Shown piece by piece: positions 44,533-53,135 of a DNA stretch of 54,024 nt. The stretch comes from Patescibacteria group bacterium (lineage in GTDB: Bacteria; Patescibacteriota; Patescibacteriia; Patescibacteriales; UBA12465), in assembly GCA_049318005.1 (NCBI GenBank), contig JBMOHE010000005.1, positions 1 to 54,024 of the forward strand, read 5' to 3'. The first letter of the stretch is position 1. Each line of letters opens with the position of its first letter. The notes under the pieces were generated by a model. The model saw nothing but the letters and a program-made list of their open reading frames with translations. It had not been told where the DNA came from and did no database searches. Made by a program: the position numbers and the translations under genes.

Positions 44533-46110
44533 ATGGTTGAAGCAATAAAAGACTTATTAGACAATTATTCTAAAAATATAAAAAATCGTGATAATTTAGA
44601 AATGATTAAGCGTTTAATTTGTAAAAAATATAAATTAGATGCTATTTTAAATGCCGATATTTTAAAAGAATATCGCAATTTATTAGAATCAAAAAAAATT
44701 AAACCTATTGAGGCGATTGAAAAGATATTAAGAAAAAGAAGCATAAGAACGATGTCTGGGATCGCTCCGGTTGCAGTTTTAACTAAATCATATCCTTGTC
44801 CAGGGACTTGTGCTTATTGTCCTCATGAGTCAGACGTGCCAGTTAGTTATTTATCAAATGAGCCGGCAGTTATGAGAGCAATTCGCTGTAAATACGATCC
44901 TTATGTACAGGTAGCCCATCGCTTAAGAGCTTTAGTTAACAATGGTCATGAACCAACCAAGATTGAGTTAATAGTTATTGGTGGGACCTGGAGTTATTTA
45001 CCCACTAAATATAAATATTGGTATATTTTAAACTGTTTTAAGGCGGCTAATGATTTTCAAAACAAAACTATAAATTTAAAAGATAAGTATAAAAAGAATT
45101 TAAACCTCGATAAATTAAAGGAATTATTAAAACTGGAACAGAAAAAAAATGAAAAAGCAAAATATAATTTAATCGGCATAACCCTTGAAACTCGACCCGA
45201 TTATATAAATACTGAAGAGTTATTAGAAATGCGAGACCTGGGTTGTACGAGAGTTGAGATTGGCGTCCAGGCTATTGATGATAAAATTTTAACCCTAAAT
45301 AAACGAGGTCACGGGGTTAAAGAAATTGCCGAAGCAACAAAACTCTTAAAACAGCTTGGCTTTAAAGTTACTTATCATTTGATGCCCGCTCTACCGGGCG
45401 CAACTCCAAAGAAAGATTTAGCTCTGTTTAAGCAATTATTTACAGATGAAAGATTCCAGCCAGATCAAATTAAGTTTTATCCAACAGTAGTAACTAAAGG
45501 TAGTTTATTATATAAGTGGTATAGGCAGGGAAAGTATAAGCCATATTCAGATAAAGTTTTACAAGAATTAATTGTTGAATGCAAGGCAGCTGTCCCGACT
45601 TATGTGAGAATAATTCGTTTAATTCGTGATATTCCAGGAGAGTCAATTATTGCTGGCAACAAAATTACTAATCTTAGGCAGGTTATGAAAGATAGGGGGG
45701 TTAAGTGTAGCTGTATTCGTTGTCGCGAAGCTAAAGATCAGCCAGTAAAAGATTATGACTTAAATATTGTGGAGTATCCTAGTTCTGGCGGAACAGAGTA
45801 CTTTATTAGCGCAGATAGCAAGGACGGTAAAACCTTGTTTGGTTTTTGCCGTCTAAGATTTGATAAGAGTAGTTTGGTTGCCCCTGCAATAATAAGAGAG
45901 CTCCATGTTTATGGAGAATTAGTCGCTGTGGGTTCTAAAAAAATGGTTCAGCACAGCGGACTGGGCACCAAATTGATAGAGGCGGCTGAAAAGTTAGCCA
46001 AGGCCGCAGAACTCAATAAGATTGCGGTTATTTCTGGGGTTGGGGTTAGGTCATATTATAAGAAATTTGGATATAAGCTCTATAGAACTTACATGGAGAA
46101 GCACTTGTAA
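44533..46110 (+). CDS. elp3: Elp3 tRNA U34 acetyltransferase (radical SAM plus KAT domain)
   Basis: SGIAPVAV, CPGTCAYCP (CX3CX2C), ETRPD, TRVEIGVQ, RELHVYG, QHSGLG. Confidence 0.93.
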   Translation: MVEAIKDLLDNYSKNIKNRDNLEMIKRLICKKYKLDAILNADILKEYRNLLESKKIKPIEAIEKILRKRSIRTMSGIAPVAVLTKSYPCPGTCAYCPHESDVPVSYLSNEPAVMRAIRCKYDPYVQVAHRLRALVNNGHEPTKIELIVIGGTWSYLPTKYKYWYILNCFKAANDFQNKTINLKDKYKKNLNLDKLKELLKLEQKKNEKAKYNLIGITLETRPDYINTEELLEMRDLGCTRVEIGVQAIDDKILTLNKRGHGVKEIAEATKLLKQLGFKVTYHLMPALPGATPKKDLALFKQLFTDERFQPDQIKFYPTVVTKGSLLYKWYRQGKYKPYSDKVLQELIVECKAAVPTYVRIIRLIRDIPGESIIAGNKITNLRQVMKDRGVKCSCIRCREAKDQPVKDYDLNIVEYPSSGGTEYFISADSKDGKTLFGFCRLRFDKSSLVAPAIIRELHVYGELVAVGSKKMVQHSGLGTKLIEAAEKLAKAAELNKIAVISGVGVRSYYKKFGYKLYRTYMEKHL

Positions 46111-46235: not shown

Positions 46236-46964
46236 ATGCTAAAAGAAGTGCCAGAAGTAAAAGTAAGAATAATCCCCAAAGAATTTTTCTTGGGGATTGA
46301 AGTTTTAGAAAGAAACGGTTTAAGCTTGAAAAATTTTCGTCGTTTAACTAAAAGTGGTGGTGATGACAAGGCAAAAAGAATTATTGAGATTCTCAACGAG
46401 CCAGTATCTAAATACCATCAACTTATTAAAGAGTGGGAAGAGTTCTATTTAAAGTATTTCAATATTAAAATTGATTTAAAGAAAATAGAGATACCAGCGC
46501 CGCCAAAACAAGAAAAACGATTATTGATTATTGTCCCGGCTTTATCGGTCGACAGGGTGATTAAATCAAAGCGTAAGCATTATAGTGTTGTGATGGCGCT
46601 TTCTGGACCCCCGGCTAAGTTAAGTAACGAAATTACTCATCACGCGCCTTATGCTGCGTGGGTAGCTGAAAGTATTAACCCGCATAGAAAAATGCGAGGA
46701 ACATCCGCTCTTTGGGCAAAGGAAAATAATGTTTCCGGAGAAACTCTTTTAGAAAGATTGTTGCACGATTTCAAGTATTGGGATGAAACAGGAAAACACT
46801 TGGATCATAATTATCTAACAATTTGTTCATCTTCAAGATTCGCAAATGGATTTGTGCCTCTTGTTGCTTTTGATCAAGATAATATCGAAGGGATAATTAT
46901 TACACAGTGCGAGGAGAATAAAAAACATCCTCACCTTGGACACCGTCAAGTATTTCGTCTATAA
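46236..46964 (+). CDS. Hypothetical protein
   Basis: 242-aa ORF with a TTGACA-N17-TATTAT promoter (46145-46173) and a terminator at 46989-47013. Confidence 0.75.
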   Translation: MLKEVPEVKVRIIPKEFFLGIEVLERNGLSLKNFRRLTKSGGDDKAKRIIEILNEPVSKYHQLIKEWEEFYLKYFNIKIDLKKIEIPAPPKQEKRLLIIVPALSVDRVIKSKRKHYSVVMALSGPPAKLSNEITHHAPYAAWVAESINPHRKMRGTSALWAKENNVSGETLLERLLHDFKYWDETGKHLDHNYLTICSSSRFANGFVPLVAFDQDNIEGIIITQCEENKKHPHLGHRQVFRL

Positions 46965-47028
46965 TCAGAAAAAATTGCTTTAGTCAGCGCCCGTTCAGAA
47001 ATGAGCGGGTTTTAAATATCCAAAAAAT

Positions 47029-47058
47029 TTGATTTTTTAAGTTAATATGTGCTATAAT
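47029..47058 (+). promoter_or_regulatory. Promoter TTGATT-N18-TATAAT with extended TG; predicted +1 near 47065
   Basis: tg-c-tataat at 47050-47058. Confidence 0.7.
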
Positions 47059-47064
47059 TAATGT

Positions 47065-47127
47065 ATGTTAATGACTAAAAATATCACAACTTGGTCTGGC
47101 TTTAAAGTATTAAGCACTCTAGTTTAA
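47065..47127 (+). CDS. Putative leaderless leader peptide MLMTKNITTWSGFKVLSTLV
   Basis: ATG coincides with the predicted +1; stop codon lies in the loop of hairpin 1:2. Confidence 0.45.
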   Translation: MLMTKNITTWSGFKVLSTLV

Positions 47128-47177
47128 TCTCAGAGGGCTATTTTTTGTATGAATGGCGCCCTCTGGGGCGTTTTTTT
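47113..47177 (+). promoter_or_regulatory. Attenuator with alternative hairpins 1:2, 2:3 (antiterminator) and 3:4 (terminator)
   Basis: AGCACTCT/AGAGGGCT; CAGAGGGC/GCCCTCTG; CGCCC-TCTG-GGGCG-T7. Confidence 0.7.
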
Positions 47178-47196
47178 ATTTACTAAATCTAAGCTC

Positions 47197-47883
47197 ATGA
47201 ATAAAGAAAATATAAATTTTAGAATTCTGGTTGCATTAGCGCTCTACTTAATATCGTTATTAGCAGCTAATACTTTAGGGTTAAAGTTGATGCCATTTAT
47301 TTTTGGGACACATTTATCGGTTGCCGTATTTTTCTTTCCGTTTGTATATTTAACAACTGATGTCATCGGGCAAGTCTATGGGAAACAGATGGCGAAAAAT
47401 TTTGTTTGGGTGGGGCTGATAAGCATGGTTTTATTTATGCTTTATACGGTAATTTCACTTGCCCTACCTTGGTCTAAAGAAAGTTTAAGTCTTAAGGCGG
47501 GCTATACTTCGGTCTTTGGGATATCGTTAAGAATGTCGATCGCCTCCTTGTTCGCTTATTTTATCGCTGAATATCAAGACGTTATCGCTTTTTTCTTTTT
47601 TAAGAATAAACTTAAAAATAAAAGTTTTTGGCTCCTTTCAAATCTTTCTAATCTCTGGTCACAATTTTTAGATACACTCGTCTTTATGATTATAGCCTTC
47701 GCGGGAATCTATTCATTCAAAACTATTATCTTTATTAGTTTGCCTTGGTGGATATATAAGGTAATAATGGGATTCTTATACACCCCTTTTTCTTATTGGG
47801 GAATTAATTTATTAAAATATGAAAATAAAAGCAATAAAAACAGCGATCTTTCAACCGAAACAGAATCTTTATGTATTCATTGA
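47197..47883 (+). CDS. yhhQ: YhhQ/QPTR (VUT family) transporter, usually annotated as queuosine precursor transporter
   Basis: FFPFVYLTTDVIGQVYG, ASLFAYFIAEYQD, SNLWSQFLDT; start moved to ATG 47197. Confidence 0.88.
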   Translation: MNKENINFRILVALALYLISLLAANTLGLKLMPFIFGTHLSVAVFFFPFVYLTTDVIGQVYGKQMAKNFVWVGLISMVLFMLYTVISLALPWSKESLSLKAGYTSVFGISLRMSIASLFAYFIAEYQDVIAFFFFKNKLKNKSFWLLSNLSNLWSQFLDTLVFMIIAFAGIYSFKTIIFISLPWWIYKVIMGFLYTPFSYWGINLLKYENKSNKNSDLSTETESLCIH

Positions 47884-48517
47884 AAAATATTTGCCTATCA
47901 TAAAAGAGAATATGATTTTGGTGGTGACTTCAAAGATTGTTGCCTTGGCCGAAGGTAGGGTGGAAAAAAATATAAATGAAAATTCAAAGATGGAAATAAT
48001 AAAAAAAGAAAGTGAATTTGTTTTTCCAACTAAATATGTTTGTTTAACTATTAAAGATGGAATCGTTATGGCGAATGCTGGGGTTGATGAAAGCAATGCT
48101 AACGGAGACATTATTCTTTTGCCTCGGAACAGTTTCTTGGCCGCTTCTAAAATAAGAAATCATTTTAAGAAAAAATTCAATTTAAAAAATTTAGGGGTTA
48201 TTGTTACTGATAGTCGATGTTTGCCGTTGCGGTCAGGAATCACCGGAGTTGCTTTAGGTTATGCCGGCTTTCAAGGACTAAAAGATTATCGAAAAAAACT
48301 AGATATCTTTGGTCGCCCGTTTCATTATTCTCGGGTTGATGTGGCTGATAGTTTAGCAACGGCCGCTGTTTATTGCATGGGCGAAGGGGATGAAAAACAA
48401 CCATTAGCGATAATTGGTAATTCGGGAGTAACTTTTTGCGAAAGAACAAATAAAAATGAATTAAAAATTGACATAAAGGAGGATATTTACGGGCCATTAT
48501 TTAAGGAGATTTTGTAA
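47819..48517 (+). CDS. CofE-like (F420-0:gamma-glutamyl ligase family) protein, possibly FolC2-type
   Basis: VVTSKIVALAEG, ANAGVDESN, GVIVTDS, G.ALG.AG, DIFGRP, D.ADSLATAA...MGEGDE..P. Confidence 0.85.
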   Translation: MKIKAIKTAIFQPKQNLYVFIEKYLPIIKENMILVVTSKIVALAEGRVEKNINENSKMEIIKKESEFVFPTKYVCLTIKDGIVMANAGVDESNANGDIILLPRNSFLAASKIRNHFKKKFNLKNLGVIVTDSRCLPLRSGITGVALGYAGFQGLKDYRKKLDIFGRPFHYSRVDVADSLATAAVYCMGEGDEKQPLAIIGNSGVTFCERTNKNELKIDIKEDIYGPLFKEIL

Positions 48518-48526
48518 AAATTAATT

Positions 48527-48555
48527 TTGACAAAAGACCCTCTCTAAATTAAGAT
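48527..48555 (+). promoter_or_regulatory. glyA promoter TTGACA-N17-TAAGAT; transcript probably leaderless
   Basis: -10 ends at 48555 and the ATG is at 48563. Confidence 0.6.
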
Positions 48556-48562
48556 TAAAGAT

Positions 48563-49807
48563 ATGAAATACAATCATTTGCAACAACAAGACCCTGCCGT
48601 TTGGGACATAATCGAGAAAGAGGAAAAACGACAAAATGAAGAACTGGAGCTAATTGCTTCAGAAAATTATGTTAGCCCGGCTGTTCTAGAGGCGATGGCG
48701 ACAGTTTTGACTAATAAATATAGCGAAGGCTATAGTGGTCGTCGTTATTATGGTGGTAATTATAATATTGATGATATTGAAAATTTAGCGATTGAACGCG
48801 TTAAAAAGCTTTTTGATGCCGAGCATGTAAACGTTCAGCCTTTGTCGGGCTCTCCTGCAAACGCGGCTGTTTACATGGCTTTTTTAAGTCCGGGCGATAA
48901 AGTTCTTGGCTTGAAACTTGATCACGGCGGTCATTTATCTCACGGGCATAGTGTTAATTTTTCTGGTCGCCTATATAACTTTGTTCAATATGGAGTTAAC
49001 ACGGAAACTGGAATTATTGATATGGACGAAGTTAGAGAAATTGCTTTAAGAGAAAAACCAAAAATGATAGTGGCTGGTTTCTCGGCTTATTCAAGAGAAA
49101 TTGATTGGCAAAAATTTAAAGATATCGCTGACGAGATTGGTGCTTATACTTTTGCCGATATCGCTCATATCGCTGGATTAATTGCCGCTAAACAGTTAAA
49201 AAATCCGGTGCCAATTTTTGATGTTGTTTCAACTACTACCCATAAAACTTTACGTGGCCCCCGAGGAGCGATAATCATGTGTAAAGAAAAATATGCGAAG
49301 CAAATAAATAGTGCAGTATTTCCAGGTATGCAAGGCGGCCCGCATGATCACATTACTGCCGCTAAAGCAGTTGCTTTTGGCGAAGCGCTGAAACCAGAAT
49401 TTATTGAATATGGAAAACAAATAATTTTAAACGCTAAAGCAATGGCAGAAGAATTTATTAATCGTGGTTATAAAATTGTTTCGGGTGGAACGGATAATCA
49501 TCTTATGGTTCTTGATTTGGGTAATAAAAATTTAGTTGGCAAAGAAGCTGAAAAGGTTTTGGAGAAAATTGGTATTTCTGTTTCTCGCTCAACCATACCA
49601 AATGATCCTAATCCGCCGATGAATCCATCTGGAATTAGAATCGGAACACCGGCCGTAACCACTCGTGGTTTGAAAGAATTAGAAATGAAACTAGTGGTTG
49701 AATATATTGACGAGGCATTTATGAATAAGGAAGATGAAAATAAACTTAGTGAGTTAAAACAAAAAGTTGAAGAACTTTGTGAAAAGTTTCCAGTTCCAAC
49801 AAAATAA
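48563..49807 (+). CDS. glyA: Serine hydroxymethyltransferase
   Basis: LIASENY, NKYSEGY, GGHLSHG, TTTHKTLRGPRG (PLP lysine). Confidence 0.98.
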   Translation: MKYNHLQQQDPAVWDIIEKEEKRQNEELELIASENYVSPAVLEAMATVLTNKYSEGYSGRRYYGGNYNIDDIENLAIERVKKLFDAEHVNVQPLSGSPANAAVYMAFLSPGDKVLGLKLDHGGHLSHGHSVNFSGRLYNFVQYGVNTETGIIDMDEVREIALREKPKMIVAGFSAYSREIDWQKFKDIADEIGAYTFADIAHIAGLIAAKQLKNPVPIFDVVSTTTHKTLRGPRGAIIMCKEKYAKQINSAVFPGMQGGPHDHITAAKAVAFGEALKPEFIEYGKQIILNAKAMAEEFINRGYKIVSGGTDNHLMVLDLGNKNLVGKEAEKVLEKIGISVSRSTIPNDPNPPMNPSGIRIGTPAVTTRGLKELEMKLVVEYIDEAFMNKEDENKLSELKQKVEELCEKFPVPTK

Positions 49808-49813
49808 AAACAT

Positions 49814-50605
49814 ATGGTTAAAATAATTAATGGACAAGCAATCGCCGAAAGAGTTAAAGATGAGGTGGCGCAAGAAATATTTGAGTGGAAGGGGCCAAGG
49901 CCAAGTCTTGCCATTGTTTTGGTTGGGGAACGTGAAGATTCTAAACTTTATGTTTCTTTAAAGCAAAAAGAAGCTGTAAAAGTTGGTGTTGATACTCATT
50001 TATATGAACTTGAAGAAAAAACTTCTGAGGAAGAGGTGTTAAGTGTTATTGATTTTCTAAATAAAGATGAATCAATTGATGGGATTTTAGTTCAGCTACC
50101 TTTGCCAGCACATATTGATGCCGATAAAATTATTGCGGCCATGTATCCAAATAAAGATGTTGATGGTTTTCATCCGGAACACCCCGATTATATTACTTCT
50201 CCTGTTTTGGCTGCAATTATTGCTTGTTTAGATGAAATAAAATTTGATTATCGCGGAAAGACTGCGTGTGTTTTTTATAATTCAGAAATTTTTGGTTTAA
50301 GCGTTAAAGAAATTTTAGAATCAAGAGATGTAGAAATTTTGCCTTTAGAAAAATCTGATGAGGCTGATATTTTAATTAGTGCCCTAGGCTTACCGCTGTC
50401 GGTTAAAAAAGAAGTTATTAAGAACGGCGCAGTTTTAATTGATATTGGAACAACTAAAGTTGATGGAAAAGTAATAGGCGATATTGATTTTGAAGACGTA
50501 AAAGATAAAGCAGAATATATTACTCCGGTTCCAGGCGGGATTGGCCCAATGACAATTGCCTTTTTATTCAAGAATGTTTTAGAGATATTTAAGAGACGGT
50601 ATTAA
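49814..50605 (+). CDS. folD: Methylene-THF dehydrogenase/cyclohydrolase FolD
   Basis: IINGQAIA, GILVQLPLP, KDVDGFH, DIG, ITPVPGGIGPMT. Confidence 0.95.
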   Translation: MVKIINGQAIAERVKDEVAQEIFEWKGPRPSLAIVLVGEREDSKLYVSLKQKEAVKVGVDTHLYELEEKTSEEEVLSVIDFLNKDESIDGILVQLPLPAHIDADKIIAAMYPNKDVDGFHPEHPDYITSPVLAAIIACLDEIKFDYRGKTACVFYNSEIFGLSVKEILESRDVEILPLEKSDEADILISALGLPLSVKKEVIKNGAVLIDIGTTKVDGKVIGDIDFEDVKDKAEYITPVPGGIGPMTIAFLFKNVLEIFKRRY

Positions 50606-52427: not shown

Positions 52428-53135
52428 ATGGAAGAAAAAAAAACTCAAGAATTATTAGAGCTTGTAAAAAATAATTACCAAGAAATTGCGACGGAGTTTG
52501 ATTTGACTAGAAAAAAAGAAATTTGGCCGGAGATTAGAGAGTTTGCGGCTGAAGTAAAAGATGGTGATAATGTTTTAGATGTCGCCTGCGGCAACGGGCG
52601 CTTGATCGAGGCGCTAAAAAATAAAAAGATTAATTATTTAGGAGTTGATAATAGTTTTAATTTAATTGAATTAGCGAAAAAAAATTATCCCGATTATAAA
52701 TTTATGATTGGCGATATGTTAAATTTAGAAAAAATTGAAAATAATGAATTTGATTTTATTTTTTGCTTAGCCGCTTTACAGCATATCCCAAGCAAAGACT
52801 TAAGGGTTAAGGTTTTACGAGACATGGCCGCTAAATTAAACAGTAATGGCAAATTAATTATTAGTAATTGGAATCTCTGGAGTCATAAAAAATATAGACC
52901 GCTATTAATAAAAAGTTACTTGTTAAAATTAATAGGAAAAAATAAATTAGATTTTAATGATTTAGTTTTCCCTTCAAAATTTTATTTAGCGAGTCAAAAT
53001 AAAAGAGAGGCAAGCGATAGATATTACCACGCTCATACCAAAGCAGAATTAAAGAAAATAGCTAATTTAGCTAATTTAAAAATTTTAGAATTGAAAAAAG
53101 ATAGGTATAATCTTTGGTTGGTTTTAAAAAAATAA
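52428..53135 (+). CDS. Class I SAM methyltransferase, Trm9/ALKBH8-like
   Basis: YQEIATEFDLTR...WP, LDVACGNGR, GVDNS, LAALQHIP...R..VL, IS.W. Confidence 0.75.
   Translation: MEEKKTQELLELVKNNYQEIATEFDLTRKKEIWPEIREFAAEVKDGDNVLDVACGNGRLIEALKNKKINYLGVDNSFNLIELAKKNYPDYKFMIGDMLNLEKIENNEFDFIFCLAALQHIPSKDLRVKVLRDMAAKLNSNGKLIISNWNLWSHKKYRPLLIKSYLLKLIGKNKLDFNDLVFPSKFYLASQNKREASDRYYHAHTKAELKKIANLANLKILELKKDRYNLWLVLKK

What the first reader, a model, noticed from the sequence alone, without database searches (positions are those of the whole stretch)
47197..50605. VUT transporter, CofE/FolC2-like ligase, glyA and folD: possible folate-salvage module
Seen: yhhQ overlaps the CofE-like gene by 65 nt, implying coupling, and glyA-folD follow directly, although glyA has its own promoter. 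Known: F420 synthesis is not expected in CPR, and a CofE-family protein in Chlamydia (CT611, FolC2) acts as an alternative folylpolyglutamate synthase. Inference: the ligase polyglutamylates imported folate for GlyA and FolD and the transporter may carry folate or pterin. Alternatively it imports a queuosine precursor and the ligase glutamylates a 7-deazapurine, which would be new chemistry.
Basis: partly seen in the sequence, partly recalled or inferred. Interest (0 to 1): 0.7.

Follow-up and report, generated by a model that had tools for sequence, protein, structure and literature searches.

The report
Folate import-and-trap operon with leader switch
A tiny (1.05 Mb) Patescibacteria genome that cannot make folate carries an operon that most likely imports folate, adds glutamates so it stays in the cell, and feeds two folate enzymes; the transporter belongs to a family known only for queuosine precursors, so public databases probably name it wrongly.

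Summary
The VUT/YhhQ gene (47197-47883) overlaps a CofE-family ligase gene (47819-48517) by 65 nt, and glyA and folD follow directly.

The ligase scores best against the Chlamydia FolC2-type model, TIGR04132. The genome has no FolC and no CofD. In 301 Patescibacteria genomes the ligase (53) and FolC (54) occur together only once.

In 79 related loci the conserved partner is the transporter, not glyA-folD. The transporter lies within two genes upstream in about 50 loci; glyA-folD follows in 11. Elsewhere the ligase sits beside folA, thyA, folB or a DHFR-like gene.

The ligase-linked transporters form a separate, long-branched clade. They coexist with ordinary YhhQ copies, and one occurs in a genome that lacks tgt. 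Other VUT genes abut canonical FolC.

In another genome the same leader precedes FolB-FolK.

Best reading (about 0.6): a folate salvage module that imports folate and traps it by glutamylation, under leader-peptide attenuation. Nothing has been tested biochemically. This genome also needs preQ1 and has no other known transporter for it.

The parts
47029..47058 (+). Promoter-like site TTGATT-18-TATAAT with TG extension, upstream of the leader
   Evidence: 10 of 12 matches. A consensus match only.
47065..47127 (+). Leader ORF of 20 codons, MLMTKNITTWSGFKVLSTLV*
   Evidence: The same peptide (M-L-x6-T-W-S-G/S-F) lies upstream of the ligase operon in 22 of 80 related loci. Variability by codon position is 1.96/2.46/5.23, a coding signature. 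It occurs once in this genome.
47128..47165 (+). Antiterminator helix: segment 1 (47128-47139) pairs with segment 2 (47156-47165). It starts right after the leader stop codon.
   Evidence: MFE -19.8 kcal/mol, z -4.2. Relatives show the same architecture with different paired sequences (CAGAGGGC/GCCCTCTG, CAAAAGGC/GCCUUUUG, CCAGGGUG/CACCCUUGG and others).
47155..47177 (+). Intrinsic terminator: GC stem (segment 2 with segment 3), tetraloop and a run of 7 T, 20 nt before the VUT ATG. Mutually exclusive with the antiterminator.
   Evidence: stem 47155-47172, 7 pairs, 5 GC; folded alone, -11.4 kcal/mol.
47197..47883 (+). VUT/QPTR-family permease (228 aa) of the ligase-linked subclade; proposed folate importer
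   Evidence: PF02592 122 bits; TIGR00697 117 bits; adjacency; clade 100/100, stem 2.03; clade-specific residues.
47819..48517 (+). CofE-fold gamma-glutamyl ligase (232 aa), FolC2-like; proposed folylpolyglutamate synthase
   Evidence: TIGR04132 214 bits against CofE 126; aligns with Af-CofE catalytic motifs; no FolC, no CofD; exclusive with FolC.
48527..48555 (+). Promoter-like site TTGACA-17-TAAGAT in the ligase-glyA gap
   Evidence: A consensus match only; no terminator precedes it.
48563..49807 (+). glyA, serine hydroxymethyltransferase (414 aa)
   Evidence: PF00464 538 bits; NF000586 610 bits, above its cut-off.
49814..50605 (+). folD, methylene-THF dehydrogenase/methenyl-THF cyclohydrolase (263 aa)
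   Evidence: both FolD domains; best FolD model 228 bits, below that model's strict cut-off.

Best explanation
This is a folate salvage operon.

Shown: the genome lacks de novo folate genes and FolC, but keeps four folate users: GlyA, FolD, Fmt and ThyX.

Inferred, step 1: a diverged paralogue of the VUT/QPTR permease family imports a folate monoglutamate. It is probably a reduced folate, because no DHFR was found.

Inferred, step 2: the translationally overlapping CofE-fold ligase, a relative of Chlamydia FolC2, uses GTP and L-glutamate to add gamma-glutamates. That traps the cofactor in the cell and makes it a better substrate for the co-transcribed GlyA and FolD. Those two enzymes turn serine and THF into methylene-THF for ThyX and 10-formyl-THF for Fmt.

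Inferred, step 3: expression is set by a leader-peptide attenuator. A ribosome that reads the 20-codon leader through to its stop codon covers segment 1, so the terminator forms. A ribosome that stalls on the conserved TWSGF stretch, or never starts, leaves segment 1 free, so the antiterminator forms and transcription runs into the transporter gene. The signal that is sensed is unknown. A folate-status signal is the natural guess.
For: Ligase:
- Its best family is TIGR04132, 'putative folate metabolism gamma-glutamate ligase', for the window protein and for all 26 aligned relatives.
- It aligns with Af-CofE across the catalytic core, including NAGxDxSN, ITD(S/T), VAD and MGEG.
- The genome has no FolC and no CofD.
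- In 301 Patescibacteria genomes the ligase is in 53 and FolC in 54, with one genome in common against 9.5 expected (P=1.4e-4).
- Neighbours in 79 loci: glyA-folD in 11, folA in 21, thyA in 20, dCMP deaminase in 22, FolB in 6, and a RibD_C/DHFR-like gene between transporter and ligase in 9.

Transporter:
- It lies directly upstream of the ligase in 43 loci and within two genes in about 50 of 79, usually overlapping it.
- The linked VUTs form one clade (100/100 support, stem of 2.03 substitutions per site) with about 40 clade-specific invariant residues.
- G242 and G163 each carry a linked copy and an ordinary copy.
- G169 has a VUT about 0.7 kb from the ligase and no tgt; G090 and G133 have VUT and FolC but no tgt.
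- VUT genes abut canonical FolC in G281, G041 and G007.
- Having a VUT is associated with having FolC or the ligase (odds ratio 4.6, P=2e-5).
- Other CPR VUTs overlap tgt, so the family is split by context.

Need for salvage:
- tblastn finds no folE, folB, folK, folP, folA or thyA, but does find fmt. thyX is present.
- A 2025 survey found no folate transporter homologues in the CPR genomes it examined (PMC11974145).

Leader:
- The same leader precedes the ligase alone, FolB-ligase, and in G095 FolB-HPPK.

Precedent: CT611/FolC2 complements an E. coli folC mutant (PMC1971073, PMC4161248).
Against: - No activity has been measured for any protein of this clade.
- Every characterised VUT/QPTR member carries 7-deazaguanines (PMC5372724, PMC11130926); none carries folate.
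- This genome has tgt and queA but no queC, queD or queF. It has no second VUT and no QueT, and only an 18-bit ECF-like hit. It therefore needs imported preQ1, and this VUT is the only candidate from a known family.
- The ligase scores 214 bits against the TIGR04132 cut-off of 350, so it is not a strict FolC2 equivalog.
- About 65% of the sampled Patescibacteria have neither FolC nor the ligase, so polyglutamylation is not obligatory there.
- In the even sample only about 8 of 44 genomes with a strong ligase match have the linked VUT. The 63% figure comes from the 80 loci most similar to this one.
- The statistics treat genomes as independent.
- No DHFR was found, so the imported form would have to be already reduced.
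Confidence: 0.6

Rival explanations
1. The transporter is what databases call it, a queuosine-precursor (preQ1) importer serving Tgt and QueA. It merely shares an operon with a FolC2-type folate ligase. Folate enters by another, unknown route.
For: TIGR00697 scores 117 bits, above its cut-off. All characterised family members carry 7-deazaguanines (PMC5372724, PMC11130926). The genome has tgt and queA but no queC, queD or queF, and no other VUT or QueT. Other CPR VUTs overlap tgt.
Against: The linked VUTs are a separate long-branched clade that coexists with ordinary copies. tgt is in 263 of 301 genomes but VUT in only 39, so most CPR obtain Q precursors without a VUT. G169 has a VUT close to the ligase and no tgt. 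VUT also abuts FolC in three genomes. The leader controlling it also controls FolB-HPPK, which plays no part in Q synthesis. A tight overlap kept across many classes argues for a shared substrate.
Confidence: 0.2
2. Transporter and ligase act together on another carboxylated pterin-like or cofactor-like molecule, for example a pteroate or pterin derivative or some other salvaged cofactor. The folate genes nearby reflect related metabolism only.
For: The ligase is below the FolC2 cut-off. FolB, a pterin-branch enzyme, neighbours it in six loci, and a RimK-like ATP-grasp ligase follows it in nine. Most CPR manage without any folate glutamyl ligase.
Against: The exclusion with FolC points to the same job as FolC. 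This genome lacks folK and folP, so pteroate or pterin salvage leads nowhere. In nine loci a DHFR-like gene lies directly before the ligase, with the VUT upstream of it in six, and that order fits intact folate.
Confidence: 0.1
3. The ligase is a true CofE that extends salvaged F420-0 or F420, which the transporter imports.
For: PF01996 match, and TIGR01916 at 126 bits.
Against: It is below the CofE cut-off (181 bits) and scores far better on the folate-type model. CofD is absent. There is no F420 context in 79 loci, only folate genes. F420-dependent enzymes were not searched for.
Confidence: 0.03
4. The ligase glutamylates an imported 7-deazapurine, which would be new chemistry.
For: Only the family name of the transporter.
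Against: CofE-type ligases activate a carboxylate as an acyl phosphate (PMC10861534). preQ0, preQ1 and queuine have none (established chemistry). The context and the leader regulon are folate-related. The pair occurs in a genome without tgt.
Confidence: 0.02

Closest known systems
FolC2 (Chlamydia trachomatis CT611; COG1478; NCBIfam TIGR04132)
   Same: CofE fold. Found in a genome without FolC and without F420 synthesis. Clustered with folate genes. TIGR04132 is the best-scoring model, aligned end to end.
   Different: Scores 214 bits against a cut-off of 350, so it is a separate Patescibacteria subfamily (more than 580 species genomes). Here the organism has no folK or folP, so only the polyglutamate-synthase half of the job is needed, on imported folate. 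It is coupled to a transporter, which the sources read here do not report beside CT611.
YhhQ/QPTR (COG1738, PF02592): E. coli preQ0/preQ1 importer and C. trachomatis queuine importer
   Same: Same family, and the core residues are kept (N25, K30, D55, R112, S117, D159, K188, P197).
   Different: Separate clade on a long stem, with about 40 clade-specific invariant residues. These include extra aromatic residues (W92, W154, W184, Y126) and N152 where every other sequence compared has T. The genomic partner is a folate ligase rather than tgt or que genes. The substrate is untested.
Uptake followed by polyglutamylation as a folate retention mechanism (FPGS/FolC with the known folate carriers FolT-ECF and FBT)
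   Same: Proposed logic: a monoglutamate is imported, then trapped and activated by gamma-glutamylation (established knowledge for folates).
   Different: Both parts are non-orthologous replacements: a VUT permease in place of ECF-FolT or FBT, and a CofE-fold GTP-dependent ligase in place of the Mur-ligase-fold FolC.
Leader-peptide transcription attenuators and metabolite-sensing arrest peptides (trpL; TnaC; SpeFL)
   Same: A short translated upstream ORF whose ribosome position chooses between an antiterminator and an intrinsic terminator. The peptide sequence itself is conserved, as in TnaC and SpeFL.
   Different: There is no run of regulatory codons, so it is not classical amino-acid attenuation. 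The MLx6TWSGF motif matches no arrest peptide I know of. The ligand and the stall site are unknown. It controls folate genes.

Membership tests
FolC2-type folate gamma-glutamate ligase (TIGR04132) | CofE/F420_ligase fold (PF01996) | tested here: met
   122.7 bits, profile positions 2-218 of 218.
FolC2-type folate gamma-glutamate ligase (TIGR04132) | Score at or above the curated cut-off (350 bits) | tested here: not met
   214 bits. Still the best model for all 26 relatives.
FolC2-type folate gamma-glutamate ligase (TIGR04132) | Genome lacks canonical FolC | tested here: met
   only weak Mur-ligase hits (26 bits or less); one co-occurrence in 301 genomes against 9.5 expected.
FolC2-type folate gamma-glutamate ligase (TIGR04132) | No F420 pathway to supply F420-0 | tested here: met
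   no CofD. cofC and the FO synthase genes were not searched.
FolC2-type folate gamma-glutamate ligase (TIGR04132) | Physical clustering with folate genes | tested here: met
   glyA-folD, folA, thyA, FolB and a DHFR-like gene.
FolC2-type folate gamma-glutamate ligase (TIGR04132) | DHFS/FPGS activity (complementation of E. coli folC, as shown for CT611) | not testable with these tools
   The precedent exists only for CT611 (PMC1971073).
CofE, F420-0:L-glutamate ligase (TIGR01916) | Score at or above the cut-off (180.65 bits) | tested here: not met
   125.9 bits.
VUT/QPTR queuosine-precursor transporters (PF02592, TIGR00697) | Family domain above the cut-off | tested here: met
   PF02592 122 bits (cut-off 27); TIGR00697 117 bits (cut-off 51).
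VUT/QPTR queuosine-precursor transporters (PF02592, TIGR00697) | E. coli-type preQ0/preQ1 transporter equivalog (NF008406, cut-off 252) | tested here: not met
   52.8 bits.
VUT/QPTR queuosine-precursor transporters (PF02592, TIGR00697) | Genomic association with tgt or que genes | tested here: not met
   this clade sits beside the ligase. Other CPR VUTs (L101, L102, G199, G147) sit beside tgt.
VUT/QPTR queuosine-precursor transporters (PF02592, TIGR00697) | Transport of preQ0, preQ1 or queuine | not testable with these tools
   Needs the E. coli queD yhhQ assay.
Leader-peptide transcription attenuator | Short upstream ORF conserved at the amino-acid level with synonymous variation | tested here: met
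   The invariance of T9-W10-S11 is partly built into the search motif; the excess of third-position change is not.
Leader-peptide transcription attenuator | Mutually exclusive antiterminator and terminator next to the ORF stop | tested here: met
Leader-peptide transcription attenuator | Run of codons for the regulating amino acid (classical type) | tested here: not met
   single W, S, G and F codons only.
Known riboswitches (THF-I/II, preQ1-I/II/III and the rest of Rfam) | Match to a covariance model in the leader | tested here: not met
   only tRNAs reach the thresholds; nothing meaningful in 46950-47250 at E up to 10.

The most novel reading that the evidence does not exclude
The ligase-linked VUT clade would be the missing folate importer of Patescibacteria. 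That would be a new substrate class for a family thought to carry only 7-deazaguanines. It would work with a FolC2-type ligase as an import-and-trap pair, and the MLx6TWSGF nascent peptide would be a ribosome-borne sensor of folate status. The sensor could bind a folate or one-carbon metabolite in the exit tunnel. Alternatively, leader translation could depend on formyl-Met initiation, which itself needs 10-formyl-THF.
Probability: 0.3. Interest if true: 0.8.

Novelty: new variant of a known kind. Interest (0 to 1): 0.64.

Why it matters
Patescibacteria keep folate-dependent enzymes but mostly cannot make folate. The 2025 survey read here found no folate transporter in the CPR genomes it checked (PMC11974145).

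A transporter-plus-ligase pair in hundreds of species would explain how part of the phylum acquires and retains the vitamin. It would also show that the QPTR/VUT family has members outside queuosine metabolism. Hundreds of public records named 'queuosine precursor transporter' and 'coenzyme F420-0:L-glutamate ligase' would then be wrong.

The leader peptide offers a possible first example of ribosome-based control of folate genes.

All three claims can be tested with standard E. coli laboratory mutants.

Tried and rejected
- Riboswitch in the 5' leader: Rfam gave nothing at gathering thresholds or at E up to 10. The leader turned out to be peptide-based.
- One search used a mistyped pattern with 21 N instead of 19. 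It found nothing, not even in this genome, and is void. It was checked on the window and repeated correctly.
- MAFFT did not put the attenuator helices in register, so I made no formal covariation count. I relied on per-sequence folds and shuffles instead.
- The gene inventory by tblastn with E. coli proteins can miss very divergent homologues. The queE hit is weak and probably a generic radical-SAM match.
- No solved structure exists for the VUT family.
- I did not run structure prediction, because it would not settle substrate specificity.
- The leader hits in G043, G251 and G029 are followed by genes of no recognisable folate function. G079 and G231 look like chance matches.
Full report
**Observation.** The window is contig C5 of a 1.05 Mb, 98.7%-complete genome. 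Its relatives are Falkowbacteria-like Patescibacteria. Four genes lie on the + strand: a Vut_1/YhhQ permease (47197-47883), a CofE-family ligase (47819-48517), glyA (48563-49807) and folD (49814-50605). The permease and ligase genes overlap by 65 nt in different frames. The ligase start is secure because the family profile aligns from residue 1. The 'own promoter' of glyA is a 10-of-12 consensus match, in a region where such matches are no more frequent than in shuffles. No terminator precedes glyA.

**The ligase.** Its best family model is TIGR04132, 'putative folate metabolism gamma-glutamate ligase', the Chlamydia FolC2 type. It scores 214 bits end to end, against 126 bits for CofE. The same ranking holds for all 26 aligned relatives. 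The score is below the 350-bit cut-off, so this is a sister subfamily rather than an equivalog.
- It aligns with Archaeoglobus CofE across the catalytic core. That enzyme uses GTP/Mn2+ and an acyl-phosphate mechanism (PMC10861534).
- The family is large and well conserved: 3097 hits, with the best 120 at 64-100% identity, and more than 580 species genomes, all Patescibacteria-like.
- This genome has no FolC and no CofD.
- In an even sample of 301 Patescibacteria genomes the ligase is in 53 and FolC in 54. They share one genome, against 9.5 expected (P=1.4e-4). This is the pattern expected when one enzyme replaces another in the same role.
- CT611 from Chlamydia, of the same superfamily, complements an E. 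coli folC mutant (PMC1971073, PMC4161248).

**Neighbourhood.** I analysed the 80 loci most similar to this one.
- glyA-folD-recQ follows the ligase only in the 11 closest relatives.
- The VUT gene is directly upstream in 43 loci and within two genes in about 50, usually overlapping the ligase.
- Other recurrent neighbours are DHFR (21 loci), ThyA (20), dCMP deaminase (22), a MazG-like protein (15), FolB (6) and a RimK-like ATP-grasp ligase directly downstream (9).
- A RibD_C/DHFR-like gene lies directly before the ligase in 9 loci. In six of them the order is transporter, reductase, ligase, which is the order expected for folate salvage.
- These loci are the nearest relatives. In the even sample only about 8 of 44 genomes with a strong ligase match carry the linked VUT.

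**The transporter.** The genome has one VUT gene.
- In a tree of 67 VUT proteins the ligase-linked ones form one clade with 100/100 support on a stem of 2.03 substitutions per site. There is a single member not linked to the ligase, from G073.
- The clade keeps the family's core residues but has about 40 invariant positions of its own. Several are added aromatic residues, and it has Asn where every other sequence compared has Thr.
- G242 and G163 each carry a linked copy and an ordinary, higher-scoring copy elsewhere.
- Other Patescibacteria VUT genes overlap tgt (L101, L102; also G199 and G147).
- In G281, G041 and G007 a VUT gene abuts canonical FolC. The G281 FolC scores 291 bits on TIGR01499.
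- Having a VUT is associated with having FolC or the ligase (26 of 39 against 80 of 262; odds ratio 4.6, P=2e-5). It is not associated with tgt, which is present in 263 of 301 genomes.
- G169 has a VUT about 0.7 kb from the ligase and no tgt. G090 and G133 have VUT and FolC but no tgt.
- The statistics ignore shared ancestry.
- Public records call these proteins 'queuosine precursor transporter'. The two QPTR papers I read make no mention of folate.

**Metabolic setting.** By tblastn the genome lacks folE, folB, folK, folP, folA, thyA, purN, purH, queC, queD, queF and queG. It has fmt, def, tgt, queA and dCMP deaminase. thyX lies next to the dCMP deaminase gene.
- The folate users are therefore GlyA, FolD, Fmt and ThyX.
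- ThyX regenerates THF rather than dihydrofolate (established knowledge). That fits the missing DHFR and implies that the folate imported is already reduced.
- The same inventory is the main argument against my reading. With tgt and queA but no preQ1 synthesis, the cell needs imported preQ1. It has no second VUT and no QueT, and only an 18-bit ECF-like hit in a hydrogenase cluster.
- Most Patescibacteria with tgt have no VUT either, so another route for preQ1 must exist in the phylum.

**Leader.** No known riboswitch fits the 5' region. Aligning the upstream regions revealed a 20-codon ORF (47065-47127, MLMTKNITTWSGFKVLSTLV) after a promoter-like site.
- The motif M-L-x6-T-W-S-(G/S)-F lies upstream of the ligase operon in 22 of 80 loci. 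It occurs once in this genome.
- Third codon positions vary more than twice as much as first or second positions.
- The stop codon lies 0-4 nt before segment 1. Segment 1 pairs with segment 2 (-19.8 kcal/mol, z -4.2). Segment 2 can instead pair with segment 3 to form a GC hairpin followed by seven T (47155-47177), 20 nt before the VUT ATG.
- Relatives keep this architecture with different paired sequences.
- A ribosome at the stop codon would cover segment 1 and favour termination. A ribosome stalled on TWSGF, or absent, would favour read-through. This step is inference.
- The leader also precedes the ligase without a VUT (L013, L019, L020, L033) and FolB-ligase (L059). In G095 it precedes FolB-HPPK-2OG oxygenase. 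It is therefore tied to folate genes, not queuosine genes.
- In G043, G251 and G029 the genes that follow it are uninformative.

**Verdict.**
- The ligase is very probably a FolC2-type folylpolyglutamate synthase (about 0.8). This makes it a new member of a known kind, and some pipelines already label it that way.
- That its permease partner imports folate is well supported by context but untested (about 0.55-0.6). If true, it is a new substrate class for the family.
- The attenuator is real as a sequence feature (about 0.9), but its signal is unknown.
- Two earlier AI notes from other genomes reached similar readings. I saw them only after my own analysis, and they are not independent evidence.

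Noticed in passing
L032, L041, L044, L048, L057, L063, L075, L076, L077 (gene directly after the ligase): A RimK-like ATP-grasp ligase (PF08443) follows the FolC2-like ligase in 9 loci. It recalls CofF and MptN, which add alpha-linked glutamates to F420 and methanopterin tails, and may cap or extend the folate tail.
   Followed up: partly
L018:3751-4434; also L022, L027, L029: An unknown 227-aa multi-pass membrane protein with no Pfam match takes the position of the VUT gene upstream of the ligase, or of DHFR-like plus ligase. It may be an alternative importer.
   Followed up: partly
L024, L027, L029, L032, L041, L048, L051, L055, L078: A RibD_C/DHFR-like gene (PF01872 and PF00186) lies directly before the ligase. 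In L032, L041, L048, L051, L055 and L078 the VUT gene comes first, giving a three-gene transporter-reductase-ligase unit. In L027 and L029 the unknown membrane protein comes first instead. L024 has only a partial VUT match upstream.
   Followed up: partly
L101:3836-5679 and L102:3827-5675: In other Patescibacteria a VUT gene overlaps tgt by 4-8 nt. This is a clean contrast to the ligase-linked clade.
   Followed up: yes
L124:489-2343 (G095): The same leader peptide (MLRNKRISTWSSF) precedes FolB, HPPK and a 2OG-Fe(II) oxygenase of unknown role in folate metabolism.
   Followed up: partly
G117:C12:14048-15474; G155:C7 (two sites): Some genomes carry two ligase paralogues. In G117 they are in tandem.
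   Followed up: no
window 44533-46110 and 52428-53135: An Elp3-type radical-SAM/GNAT tRNA-modification gene and a class I methyltransferase flank the operon. They stay syntenic with it in the closest relatives. Other readers have flagged this pair.
   Followed up: no
window 46236-46964: A 242-aa ORF with no Pfam or NCBIfam match, followed by its own terminator-like hairpin (about 46976-47010). It is conserved only in the nearest relatives.
   Followed up: no
G000:C9:29581-30709: The dCMP deaminase and ThyX genes are adjacent in this genome. In relatives the dCMP deaminase, ThyA and DHFR genes sit next to the ligase instead.
   Followed up: partly
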